Shown one piece after another: positions 599-47,600 of a stretch of DNA of 64,000 nucleotides; within the stretch, counting starts at the first letter, position 1, and each line of letters begins with the position of its first letter. Origin of the DNA: Octopus sinensis (Eukaryota); assembly GCF_006345805.1 (NCBI RefSeq), contig NC_043023.1, positions 12,524,001-12,588,000 of the forward strand, in the 5' to 3' direction. Made by a program: the position numbers and the translations under genes. The notes under the pieces are model-generated. The model was given only the letters and a program-made list of their open reading frames with translations. It ran no database searches and was not told the origin of the DNA.

Positions 599-651
599 TT
601 CTCTCAAAGTAGCAACTTAATTATACATGAGAGAAAATAGATCACTGTGAT
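599..651 (+). pseudogene. Relic zinc-finger fragment (FSQSSNLIIH...TCACTGTGAT), cut by an antisense RTE tail
   Basis: TTCTCTCAAAGTAGCAACTTAATTATACAT translates as FSQSSNLIIH, followed by a degenerate linker and CACTGTGAT; paralogues near 18785, 28335, 36235. Confidence 0.55.
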
Positions 652-865
652 CATCATCATCATCATCGTTTAACGTCCGATTTCCATTGTAGCATGGGTT
701 GCACGATTTGATTGAGAACTGGCGAACCAAGAGGCAGCACCAGGCTCCAATCTGATCTGGCAGAGTTTCTACAGCTGGATGCCCTTCCTAACACCAACCA
801 GCTGCAGAAACTCTACCAGATCAGATTGGAGCCTGGTGCTGCCATCTGGTTCGCCAGCTGTTCTC
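652..865 (-). mobile_element. Antisense RTE 3' tail with fold-back inversion
   Basis: (CAT)n plus reverse complement of the RTE 3' end; 719-780 is inverted at 800-857; paralogues about 18836-19050, 28386-28600, 36286-36500. Confidence 0.75.
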
Positions 866-877
866 TGGGAATAATGG

Positions 878-1880
878 GGATCTTTTCGGTTTGAACGGCA
901 GGTTTTTAAATTTCTAGGTAACTAAAAAAATTTTAAACTTCATATACAGATAGAATGTATTTATAAAGCATCTTTTTCTTTGGCTTTATTGAGAAAATTC
1001 TGTAGTTTGTAACATCTTTTTTGTTTTTTTCTGCACTTTCAACCAATCAATGATGTCTATTGAGGTAAAAAAAAACATTATGTGCCTTATGAATATGTCC
1101 CTCGTTTAAGAAACAGATTGGGTTTATTTACATTTTAGAAGAAAAAAAGATACCCTTCCCCCACCTCTAACCTTAACACATATTGAAATGCAATAGATCG
1201 ATCCTAGGGTCATAATTATGGGTGATAATTTCATATGACACCGCTACAAAAAACTGCCGGTCAAAGTAAATAATAAGGTGATGCTTCGATATATATGTAC
1301 ACACGTGACTTTGTTTACATTTGGGAAGATAACAGAAAGCCTTTTCTCCCCACTCCTAACCCTAACACGGGGACATTCTTTTTAAAAACTGCCGTTCAAA
1401 CCGAAAAGATCCCAAATATCTTACAAACTATAGAATTTTCTCAATAAAGCCAAGAGAAACAGATGTTTTATAAACACATTCTACCAGTATACGAAGTTTA
1501 AAAGTGTTTAGTTACTCTCTTTTTTACTCTTTTACTTGTTTCAGTCATTTGACTGCGGCCATGCTGGAGCACCTCCTTTAATCGAGCAAATCGACCCCGG
1601 GACTTATTCGTTGTAAGCCCAGTACTTATTCTATCGGTCTCTTTTTGCCGAACCGCTAAGTGACGGGGACATAAACACACCAGCATCGGTTGTCAAGCAA
1701 TGCTAGGGGGACAAACACAGACACACAAACACATACGCACATATATATATATATATATATATATATATATATATACATATATACGACGGGCTTCTTTCAG
1801 TTTCCGTCTACCAAATCCACTCACAAGGCTTTGGTCGTGGAAATTATTTTAAAAAACTGCCGGTCAAACCGAAAAGATCC
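878..1880. mobile_element. GGATC-family MITE with duplicated right terminus
   Basis: TIR GGATCTTTTCGGTTTGAACGGCAG at 878; complement CTGCCG(T/G)TCAAACCGAAAAGATCC ending at 1411 and 1880; paralogues 19063-19741, 28612-29314, 36512-37224. Confidence 0.8.
1515..1836 (-). mobile_element. 5'-truncated tRNA-derived SINE with (TA)n core, nested in a MITE
   Basis: Same body as the full SINE at 16623-17062; absent at the equivalent site (GTTAC/GTGGAAATT) in other units. Confidence 0.8.
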
Positions 1881-43312: not shown

Positions 43313-43945
43313 AGGAGTTGAGGGAACCTGTGGAAGATGTAGACCCAGGAAAACCTGGGACGAGGTGGTGAAGCACAACCTTTGAACTTTAGGTCTCACC
43401 AAGGAAATGACTAGAGACCGAGACCTATGGAAGTATGCTGTGCGTGAGAAGACCCGGCAAGACCCCTCAGAACAGTCAAAATCAAACCAAATCAACATCA
43501 GTGGAAATTGCAGCTGTGGTTAAGCAAACCATCCGATCGTTTGTCCGTTGCCAGCGTCGCCTGGCCCCGTGCCTTTCGCATGTAAAAGCACCATCCGCTC
43601 GTGTCCGTTGGCAGCCTCGCCAGGTCCCCGTGCCGGTAGCACGTAAAAGCACCATCCCTTCTTGTCCGTTGCCAACCTCAACTGGCCCTGTGCCGGTGGC
43701 ACATAAAAACACCATCCGTTCGTGGCTGTTTGCCAGCGCTGTCTGGCACCTGTGCAGGTCGCACGTAAAATGCACCCACTACACTCACGGAGTGGTTGGC
43801 GTTAGGAAGGGCATCCAGCCGTAGAAACACTGCCAAATCTGACTGGGCTGATAAAGCCTTCCGGCTTCACAGACCCAGTTAAACCGTCCAACCCATGCTA
43901 GCATGGAAAACGGACGCTAAATGATGATGATGATGATGATGATGA
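43313..43945 (+). mobile_element. RTE LINE 3' fragment including the ORF C-terminus
   Basis: Encodes VEGTCGRCRPRKTWDEVVKH...RDRDLWKYAVREKTRQD, similar to the C-terminal part of 45363-45824; (GAT)n tail. Confidence 0.88.
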
Positions 43946-44670
43946 TTCATCAATACATCAAACCCATCTTATAAAGGAAATCTGTGAAAAACAACAGCAA
44001 AATATTTCTTCTGGACGATGGAATTAACAGCAACAATTTGAAGTCTTTGCTGTCTGGAATATAGAGGAGATGATTGTTTTACAGGTTAAATAAGCTTGGA
44101 TAACTTTTCAAAGGGGTAGACAATTGTCACCTCTTCATTTAGACATTAAGCAAAATCACAGATGAAAGAAGCATAGCATTAAATTAATCTCTGAAAATAG
44201 CAACACAAATATATTCATAGAAATGAATTTTTTTCCTATTTCAGAATATCATACCATGTTGATTTAAAAGAAATTTCTTAATTCAGATGTGTGTCTGATA
44301 TTTTGATTGACTTTCATCAATTAAAGGAAGACCATATATTCATAAGACACATTCATCAAAACATCAGCTTCTTCATATAAATAAAATCTTCGCCGAACGA
44401 TGGGGAAATATTTCTTCTGGATGATGGAATTAAGAGCAACATTTTTTTTGCCATCTGGAATGTAGAGATGATGATGAACCTACAGGTTAAGTTTGAGTAA
44501 CTTTACAAAAGAGTTAACCAATTTATATCTTCTGTTTTAGATATTAAGCAAGATCACCAATGAAAGTAACATAACGTTTAATTATTCTCTGATGCATTTG
44601 AACACAAACATTCATAGAAATGAAACAGATACAATCATTGTGATATGTATAACGAAATTATTCTCTCATA

Positions 44671-47600
44671 ATGAATAATTCAACTAAAGCAAAAGTCTCT
44701 GATAAAAGAGGGAAGCTATATCACTGTGATCATCATCATCATCATCATCGTTTAACGTCCCCTTTCTATGCTAGCATGGGTTGGACGGTTCAACTGGGGT
44801 CTGGCAAGCCCGAAGGCTACACCAGGCCAGTCAGATCTGGCAGTGTTTCTACAGCTGGATGCCCTTCCTAACGCCAACCACTCCGAGAGTGTAGTGGGTG
44901 ATTTTATGTGCCACCGACACAGGTGCCAGACGAGGCTGGCAGACGGCCACGCTCGGATGGTGTTTTTTATGTGCCACCGACACAGGTGCCAGACGAGGCT
45001 GGCAGACGGCCACGCTCGGATATGGTGTTTTCGGTGTTTTTCTTATGTGCCACCGACACAGGTGCCAGACGAGGCTGGCGAACAGCTACGATCGGATGGT
45101 GTTTGTTACGTACCCAAGGCACGGAGGCCAGTCGATGCGTTACGGCTACGGTCCCTTTCGGATGGTTTCTTATGTGCCACCGGCACTGGTACCACAAGGA
45201 TACAAATTCCATTGATGTTCATCTATTTTGATTTGGTTTGACTTGATTCGATTTGACTTTGATTTGATTTGCCTCAACAGATCTTCACAAGTGTCACAAG
45301 CAGGAAATTATGCACAGGTGGACTGACTACGTCCCAGGTAGGGGCCACGGGTTATGGCTTCACTAGTCTTGCCGGGTCTTCTCACGCACAGCATACTTCC
45401 ATAGGTCTCGGTCTCTAGTCATTTCCATGGTGAGACCTAACGTTCGAAGGTCGTGCTTCACCACCTTGTCCCAGGTTTTCCTGGGTCTACCTCTTCCACG
45501 GGTTCCCTCAACTGCTAGGGATTGGCACTTTCTCACACACCTATCTTCATCCATTCTTGCCACATGACCATACCAGCGCAATCGTCTCTCTTGCACGCAA
45601 CAACTGATGCTTCTTAGGTACAACATTTCTCTCCGGGAACTAACACTCTGTCGAGTAAGTACACTGACATTACACATCCATCGGAGCATACTGGCTTCAT
45701 TCCTCATGAGCTTACGCATGTCCTCAGCAGTCATGGCCCATGTTTCACTGCCATGTAGCATGGCAGTTCGAACACATGCATCATACAGTCTGCCCTTTAC
45801 TCTGAGCGAGAGGCCTTTAGTCACCAGCAGAGGTAAGAGCTCCCTAACTTTGCCCAGGCTATTCTTATTCTAGCAGTTACACTCTCAGCGCACCCACCCC
45901 ACTACTGACTTGGTCACCTAGATAACGGAAGCTATCAACTACATCTAATTTTTCCCCCTGGAAAGTGACGGAAGTTGTTTTCTGCAGATTTTCGGAGGTC
46001 AATGCTCCCGAGCATCTGCCACATAAAAAACTATCTTCCCAGTTAGCCTACCTTTGACATTGCTGCACCTCTTCTGTGTCCATAGCTTACACTGGGTACA
46101 TCTTATAGAGTTTCCACCTACACCTTTCTACAGATCGAGCAGGGCCATCTTCCTGAGGACATTTGTGGATTGCCTACCTTTCTACTTATTAGTACTTTGC
46201 ATTTAGCTAGGTTGACTCTAAGGCCCCTCGATTCTAAACCCTCCTTCCACACCTGGAACTTCTCCTCCAGTTCTGATAGTGACTCATTGACATTTGCATA
46301 GCCTAACTTTGACATTCTGTCCTCTTCTGTGTCCATAGCTTACACTGGTACATCTTATAGAGTTTTCCACCTACACCTTTTCTACAGATCGGCAGGGCCA
46401 TCTTCCTGAGGACATTTGTGGATTGCCTACCTTTCTACTTATTAGTACTTTGCATTTATCTAGGTTGACTCTAAGGCCCCTCGATTCTAAACCCTCCTCG
46501 CACACCCCCTGGAACTTCTCCTCCTTGATAGTGACTCAGCAATTAGAGCGAGGTCGTCAGCATAGAGGAGCTCCCAGGGGCAACCTGTCTTGAATTCCTC
46601 TGTTATTGCCTGGAGGACTATGATAATAGGAGGGGGCTGAGTACTGAACCCTGGTGGACCCCAACCTCTACTTGAATTCTTCTGTGTACATGTTGCCAAC
46701 CCTAACCTTGCTTACGGCATCTCTGTACATGGCTTGCACAGCCTCACCAGCCCATTCATCTACCCTAGTTTCCTCATTGACCACCAGATGAGGGATCGGG
46801 GGACCCTATCAAAGGCTTTCTCCATGTCAACGAAAGCCAGGTACAGGGCTTATCTTTGGCTAGGTATTTCTCTCCTGCAGCTGCCTTACCAGGAATATAG
46901 CATCATGTGGTGCTTTTCCCTGGCCAAACCCAAACTGCATTTCATCTAAACTAACTCTCTCTCCTAATTAGTTGGGCTATGACCCTCTCCGTAACCTTCA
47001 TTACCTGATCCAACAGCTTGATACCTCTGTAATTATTTGTATCTAGGGCATCACATTTACCTTTTGTAGCAGTTGACTAGTACGCTGCTACACCAGTCTT
47101 GGGTATGACTCCTTCGTGTATCACCTGGCTGACTATACGGGTGACTAGTTATAGCCGACACTGCCAGATATTTTGAGCATCTCTGCAGTAATCCTGATGG
47201 GCCTGGGGCTTTCCCTGTCTTCATGCTTCTAATTTCCTTAGCTACCACGGAACTATCAACTCGGATAGCTGGTCCCTCTGTTGGGTCAACATTCGGCAGA
47301 CTCTCTTTATCCCTTCATTTTCTTTATTCAGCAAACTTTCATAGTGGGCATCTCCAACCTCTCTCTTTGCATCTGTGGTAGTCATTCTCTCAAAGTGGTA
47401 ATCTAAGAAGGCACAGACGTGTTCATACGGGGAAAAGCCGCATCAGTGTGATATCTGTGGTAAATCATTTCTTGAAGTGCTGACGTACCTAAACACAAAC
47501 GTACTCATACAGGAGAGAAACCATATCAGTGTGATATCTGTGGTAAATCATTTTCTCGAAGTGCTGACTTACCTAAACACAAACGTACTCATACAGGAGA

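What the first reader, a model, noticed from the sequence alone, without database searches (positions are those of the whole stretch)
599..47380. RTE LINE lands repeatedly at the zinc-finger CAC-TGT-GAT motif
Seen: the antisense RTE in copy 6 joins as TATCACTGTGAT|CATCATCAT at 44730, and the ZNF resumes at ATCTGTGGT (47371) with no TSD. A different, diverged RTE tail at about 651 (paralogues near 18835, 28385, 36285) has the same junction, GATCACTGTGAT|CATCATCAT, right after a relic finger reading FSQSSNLIIH. Known: RTE elements use target-primed reverse transcription and can anneal their tail repeats to the target. Inference: the (GAT)n tail has microhomology with the Cys-Asp codons repeated every 84 bp, so ZNF arrays may be preferred targets. 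That would let a LINE knock out its potential repressors.
Basis: partly seen in the sequence, partly recalled or inferred. Interest (0 to 1): 0.75.

Follow-up and report, generated by a model that had tools for sequence, protein, structure and literature searches.

The report
Retrotransposon hotspot inside zinc-finger codons
A common jumping gene lands again and again at one exact base of the zinc-finger repeat, likely because those codons happen to spell its general cutting preference, but zinc-finger genes as a whole carry fewer surviving copies than average DNA, so nothing shows that it hunts its repressors.

Summary
Both junctions are real and independent: different subfamilies (79% identical), each copied with the tandem unit (about 34 and 5 copies). 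The recurrence holds genome-wide. Of 33 independent antisense junctions inside fingers, 15 fall right after the codon following the first Cys; 4 of 12 sense junctions hit the same GAT^ATC from the other strand.

The proposed cause fails. Only AT can pair with the tail, and TGTGAT is not enriched (3.0% of GAT junctions against 2.4-2.8% background). A profile trained only on non-zinc-finger junctions (nick after AT, next bases RT, A-rich patch at +9 to +12) ranks this base first of 168 finger positions. That profile resembles the published Tn-TA signature of RTE LINEs, and the Cys-Asp-Ile-Cys-Gly-Lys codons spell it. It predicts 24-26% of antisense hits, against 45% seen.

Arrays are not enriched overall (37 tails near fingers, 71-93 expected), and survivors cluster in the last fingers (13 of 15), which points to purging. 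Repressor knock-out is unsupported. The scan earlier noted this element's PHD finger on other DNA; my two look-ups did not return this hotspot.

The parts
598..651 (+). Relic C2H2 finger fragment ending in His-Cys-Asp codons; left flank of the short insertion; 34 copies in the cluster
   Evidence: nhmmer E 5e-4
652..795 (-). Short 5'-truncated RTE copy: (CAT)5 tail plus about 130 nt of 3' end; different subfamily from the 44731 copy
797..858 (+). Fold-back inverted copy of the element's own bases 717-777, at its 5' end
18828..18985 (-). Paralogue of the 651 junction and tail (same event)
28377..28534 (-). Paralogue of the 651 junction and tail (same event)
36277..36434 (-). Paralogue of the 651 junction and tail (same event)
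44722..44730 (+). Left half of the target: CAC TGT GAT of the first finger; inferred first-strand nick after base 44730
44731..47370 (-). 5'-truncated RTE-type LINE: (CAT)6 tail, repetitive 3' UTR, and an RT region that has a PHD-like Cys/His module and a C-terminal RGRGRPRK motif; frameshifted here, open for 591 aa in paralogue L066
47371..47383 (+). Right half of the target: ATC (3-bp 5' microhomology), then the Cys-Gly-Lys codons that supply the A patch at +10 to +12 (TAAG in paralogues)
47371..48830 (+). Finger array of the interrupted gene copy, cut off from its short N-terminal part
4386..5804 (+). Uninterrupted paralogous finger ORF (empty site of the 44731 insertion at 4452-4472)

Best explanation
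The recurrence at one base of the finger is real, and it likely arises because this LINE's general two-part target preference is spelled out by the Cys-Asp-Ile-Cys-Gly-Lys codons, not because it seeks zinc-finger genes. Shown: junction flanks genome-wide mostly end in T or AT. In duplication-resolved non-finger sites the next bases are purine then T, with an A-rich, G-poor patch 9-12 bases on. A profile of these ranks the GAT^ATC of the coding strand first of 168 finger positions. Inferred: the endonuclease nicks there, the terminal AT pairs with two bases of the (GAU)n tail to prime reverse transcription, and the second end joins nearly blunt, here by a 3-bp microhomology. On the element's own strand the site reads TTT-N7-AT^AT, the Tn-TA signature of RTE LINEs. 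Inferred: selection removes most hits in working fingers, and the tandem unit later copied the two local events. Speculative: the C-terminal RGRGRPRK (AT-hook-like, below Pfam's cut-off) may read the A/T patch.
For: Of 156 unbiased left flanks, 119 end in T and 79 in AT. In 24 non-finger insertions with a duplication of 5-8 bp (3.3 expected by permutation, maximum 9): purine at +1 in 19, T at +2 in 14, A at +11 in 17, and A at +9 to +12 in 49 of 96 against 73 of 216 further out, p 0.006. The profile gives the antisense Asp-codon nick rank 1 (rank 1 in 81% of 500 bootstraps), with its share rising from 4% to 15% when the patch is added, against 3-6% with control columns. It also ranks the sense D-I nick and the antisense P-Y nick 3rd and 4th, where 4 and 5 events lie. 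Predicted odds are about 46 times the genome average; observed 64-75 times, in regions about 2.4 times denser in tails. Tn-TA is described in PMC13295347 (Results read) and PMC6007223 (sections 15 and 17 read).
Against: The observed share (15 of 33, 45%) exceeds the predicted 24-26% of antisense events (p 0.006), so about twofold is unexplained. The profile rests on 24 events, many from GAT-selected loci. One set of control columns still left the site at rank 1. Without allowing for duplications, AT at +1 was 11 of 68 against 13% control, and no clear patch showed in 85 raw flanks. The signal in 187 events without a duplication (43% against 34% A) used a window picked. Four of the 15 events are degenerate, and ambiguous nicks were placed by hand. 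TSDs are far rarer and shorter than published for RTEs.
Confidence: 0.75

Rival explanations
1. The element is steered to zinc-finger genes, for example by chromatin read through its PHD-like module, over and above sequence preference. Selection then hides the excess.
For: The site rate is 23-27 times that of a generic GAT. There is a twofold residual over the profile. DNA around finger loci has 126 tails per Mb and the cluster 185 per Mb, against 52 genome-wide. A PHD-like module is present (Pfam E 0.044, below cut-off). Strong purging means surviving copies understate new insertions.
Against: Only 37 tails lie near anchors against 71-93 expected. Tail-holding loci on contig C1 are just as dense (121 per Mb). 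Chromatin steering would not pick one base within the 84-bp repeat.
Confidence: 0.12
2. One reading: identity between the (GAT)n tail and the Cys-Asp codons lets the RNA anneal, making TGTGAT and finger arrays preferred targets.
For: Two-base AT microhomology is common (79 of 156). Five of 33 independent TGTGAT junctions are in fingers, against 0.2 expected.
Against: In the antisense geometry G cannot pair (from the sequence). Non-finger TGTGAT junctions are 28 of 1,110 against a 2.4-2.8% background. Finger sites with longer true complementarity (TTCAT, AATCAT, CCAT) are hit less. The same position is hit when the codon is GAC, CAC or AAT. A model using only the left dinucleotide predicts 4%.
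Confidence: 0.05
3. A few insertions were spread between fingers and genes by gene conversion or unequal crossing-over, which mimics repeated landing.
For: Duplication certainly multiplied both window events, to 34 and 5 copies.
Against: After collapsing paralogues, the events at this position differ in element subtype, in length (about 90 bp to 2.4 kb where resolved) and in contig, and 4 are in the opposite orientation.
Confidence: 0.08

Closest known systems
Tn-TA insertion signature of RTE-clade LINEs and their SINEs (Bov-B, Sauria SINE, plant RTEs; PMC13295347 abstract and Results read; PMC6007223 abstract and sections 15 and 17 read)
   Same: T-rich patch about 10 nt upstream of a T^A step on the element's strand; one- or two-base 3' microhomology with a microsatellite tail.
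   Different: Weaker patch (peak at one position). TSDs of 5 bp or more in only 24 of 211 resolved sites, 5-8 bp long, against mostly 7-15 bp. (GAT)n tail. Apparently a cephalopod host (inferred). The best match falls on a host coding repeat.
Octopus RTE LINEs (RTE-2_OV and the O. bimaculoides RTE; PMC9115989, passages read)
   Same: RTE-type LINE in what is likely an octopus genome (inferred from 2.7 Gb size, about 30 large contigs and the finger clusters).
   Different: Identity to RTE-2_OV was not tested. 'Target site' has 0 occurrences in that paper's main text; its supplements were not read.
Target-specific LINEs such as R2 (recalled, no call)
   Same: Repeated landing at one base of a multicopy host sequence.
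   Different: Here only about 19 antisense and 4 sense known events among roughly 140,000 tail motifs; the element is dispersed, not site-specific.
TE versus zinc-finger conflict model (PMC10547256, passages read)
   Same: Octopus finger proteins were among those examined there by predicted binding to TE sequence.
   Different: Repression was tested there in zebrafish; nothing here shows that these genes repress this LINE.

Membership tests
RTE-clade LINE | Non-LTR reverse transcriptase domain | tested here: met
   RVT_1 E 1.9e-31 in paralogue L066
RTE-clade LINE | 3' microsatellite-like tail | tested here: met
   (GAT)n tail
RTE-clade LINE | Single ORF with N-terminal APE endonuclease | not tested
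   The copies studied are 5'-truncated upstream of RT; no full-length copy was fetched
RTE-clade LINE | RT groups with RTE in a tree | not tested
Tn-TA signature | First base at the nick is A on the element's strand (primer ends in T) | tested here: met
   119 of 156 unbiased flanks
Tn-TA signature | T immediately 5' of that A | tested here: inconclusive
   A at +1 in 12 of 24, purine in 19 of 24
Tn-TA signature | T stretch about 10 nt upstream | tested here: met
   A at +11 in 17 of 24; +9 to +12 at 51% against 34%, p 0.006; weaker than three consecutive T
Tn-TA signature | TSDs of about 7-15 bp in most copies | tested here: not met
   24 of 211 have 5-8 bp; the window insertion has none
Target-specific LINE | Most copies at one host target | tested here: not met
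   5 independent finger events among 26,259 strict tails

The most novel reading that the evidence does not exclude
Every finger carries a near-optimal site for this LINE. Steered further by its PHD and AT-hook-like modules, the element hits finger arrays far more often than surviving copies show, and it acts as a directed mutagen that drives turnover of the expanded zinc-finger family, including genes that repress it.
Probability: 0.12. Interest if true: 0.75.

Novelty: new variant of a known kind. Interest (0 to 1): 0.4.

Why it matters
It extends the RTE two-part insertion signature to an invertebrate lineage with nearly blunt insertions. It also shows that a conserved codon run can by coincidence be a LINE's best site. 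The roughly 16,000 fingers act as a natural known-target library for measuring endonuclease preference and selection. It is a caution too: a base-precise hotspot inside a gene family need not mean the family is targeted.

Tried and rejected
1. Single ancestral event for 651 and 44731: rejected.
2. TGTGAT as a general target: rejected.
3. AT^AT alone: raw right flanks gave no signal, and as a model it ties four sites at about 4% each.
4. First end-calling attempts were noisy.
5. Empty site for the 651 event: none in 30 of 34 copies.
6. Pfam on the frameshifted window fragments was weak, so paralogue L066 was used.
7. No protein-atlas result was obtained.
8. One search used a miscount of 37 independent TGTGAT junctions, as did the TGTGAT rates; this was corrected to 33.
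9. Paper searches listed no title or abstract on LINE target preference for finger codons or in cephalopods. The library lacks most subscription papers, and no supplements were read.
10. PMC2887409 (passages) and PMC12988792 (passages) added only background.

Full report
Setting. The window lies on contig C27 of a 2.72-Gb genome, likely an octopus (inference). It holds tandem units of about 9 kb, each with one C2H2 finger array.

Observation. All five junctions are at the stated places. The long insert (44731-47370, minus strand) splits the first finger between the Asp and Ile codons. No duplication is present. Longer family members continue with ATC, so the 5' joint is a 3-bp microhomology. 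Paralogue L066 keeps a 591-aa frame with RVT_1 (E 1.9e-31) and weak PHD and AT-hook hits below cut-off. The relic at 598-651 is a weak but significant finger match.

Independence. The two tails are 79% identical and have different nearest relatives. Each is a single event copied with the unit: 34 relic copies, with 30 of 30 fetched carrying the insert, and 5 copies of the long insert.

Genome-wide junction counts. A strict tail pattern occurs 26,259 times. GAT precedes it 1,146 times, ATAT 8,641 times and TGTGAT 64 times. All 64 were read: 29 are the two cluster events, and collapsing paralogues leaves 33 independent events, 5 of them in fingers. TGTGAT makes up 3.0% of GAT junctions against 2.4-2.8% of GAT in fetched DNA, which is no enrichment. 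Five finger events against about 0.2 expected is an enrichment. So the finger context matters, not the hexamer.

Position within the finger. Eleven searches anchored on finger motifs, but not on junction position, collected tails in both orientations. Junctions were mapped with a profile of 607 fingers, and paralogues were collapsed by eye. Of 33 antisense events, 15 lie after the codon following the first Cys (11 read without gaps, 4 degenerate). The rest are 7 at Pro-Tyr/His, 4 at the second His, 3 at Lys-Ser and 4 elsewhere. Of 12 sense events, 4 hit the same GAT^ATC from the other strand. Four more antisense events came only from the TGTGAT search and were left out of this tally. Dropped as outside a recognisable finger, low-scoring or too decayed: L140, L161 second junction, L179, L185, L190, L191, L227-235, L239, L257, L258, L302, L305, L310 first junction, L345 and L347. 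Nicks hidden by microhomology were placed by hand. The events differ in subtype and length.

General target preference. Of 156 unbiased non-finger left flanks, 119 end in T and 79 in AT; TAT ends number 49, AAT 20 and GAT 10. In the antisense geometry only that AT can pair with the (GAU)n tail, so the identity of GAT with the tail is irrelevant. Raw right flanks were uninformative. Of 460 junctions, 259 had a resolvable 5' end and 211 were outside fingers. Of those, 24 carry a 5-8 bp duplication (3.3 expected by permutation). After the nick these read purine (19 of 24) and then T (14 of 24), with an A-rich, G-poor patch at +9 to +12 and A at +11 in 17 of 24, including 5 of 5 in the last batch fetched. 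On the element's strand this is T-rich, about 10 nt, then T^A, the Tn-TA pattern reported for Bov-B and other RTE elements (PMC13295347, Results read; PMC6007223, sections 15 and 17 read). I was led to the former paper by an earlier scan note.

Prediction. The finger's template strand reads TTT ACCACAG AT^AT. A profile built without finger data gives the antisense Asp nick 2% of all finger weight from the left dinucleotide alone, 4.4% with +1 and +2, and 14.8% (rank 1 of 168) with the patch. The fit to the observed events rises accordingly (log ratio 12, 22, 39). Rank 1 holds in 81% of bootstraps, and control columns give 3-6%, though one control set still ranked it first. Predicted odds are about 46 times average; observed 64-75 times (5 strict events on 13,892-16,190 sites), in regions about 2.4 times richer in tails. 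Against this reading, the predicted antisense share is 24-26% and the observed share 45% (p 0.006).

Are arrays preferred? A loose tail motif occurs 141,420 times. Within 110 nt of 16,190 finger anchors there are 31 antisense and 6 sense tails, against 35-47 expected each, and the 31 include 8 paralogous copies. Among 15 antisense events with at least 6 fingers upstream, 13 have at most 2 downstream (6.1 expected, p 6e-5). Downstream sequence was limited to the fetched flank, and downstream fingers may have decayed after insertion. This fits removal of insertions from working fingers. It also means new-insertion rates in arrays are not measured here. The 44731 insertion is an exception in the first finger. 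It likely killed one paralogue among dozens, and was then duplicated.

Verdict. A real, base-precise hotspot, most likely a coincidence between conserved codons and a known kind of RTE target preference, with unusually short or absent duplications. Targeting of finger genes or of repressors is not shown. Seven paper searches listed no report of it; supplements were not read.

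Noticed in passing
window 717-858: The short RTE copy ends in a fold-back: about 60-bp inverted arms around a short loop, inherited by the cluster copies; likely cDNA snap-back during insertion.
   Followed up: partly
window 46044-46538: A 243-bp tandem duplication inside the RT region. The fetched paralogues are about 180-240 bp shorter and lack it; it may be an assembly artefact or a late duplication.
   Followed up: partly
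L066:2144-3916 (minus); window about 45900-46150: PHD-like Cys/His module inside the RT region, and a C-terminal RGRGRPRK AT-hook-like motif (both below Pfam cut-off).
   Followed up: partly
window 40440-41470, 47370-48830, 55540-56920: Finger arrays of the later units show many single-base indels, with or without an insertion; possibly sequencing error rather than decay.
   Followed up: no
genome-wide: A third of strict tails (8,641 of 26,259) follow ATAT, often (AT)n microsatellites, including the (AT)n of an abundant SINE-like repeat (L014, L017).
   Followed up: partly
window 877-1414: Inverted-repeat (MITE-like) element about 20 bp after the short RTE copy; the intervening TTCTCTGGGAATAAT may be the resumed relic finger.
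   Followed up: no
window 9693-12124: Block of inverted and tandem repeats (about 620-bp inverted arms at 97% identity).
   Followed up: no
L131, L159, L167, L310: Single finger loci carrying two separate RTE tails within 1.5 kb, suggesting dead or terminal arrays accumulate hits.
   Followed up: partly
G000 C27 about 12.50-13.01 Mb: The tandem cluster spans about 0.5 Mb and switches strand near 12.83 Mb.
   Followed up: no
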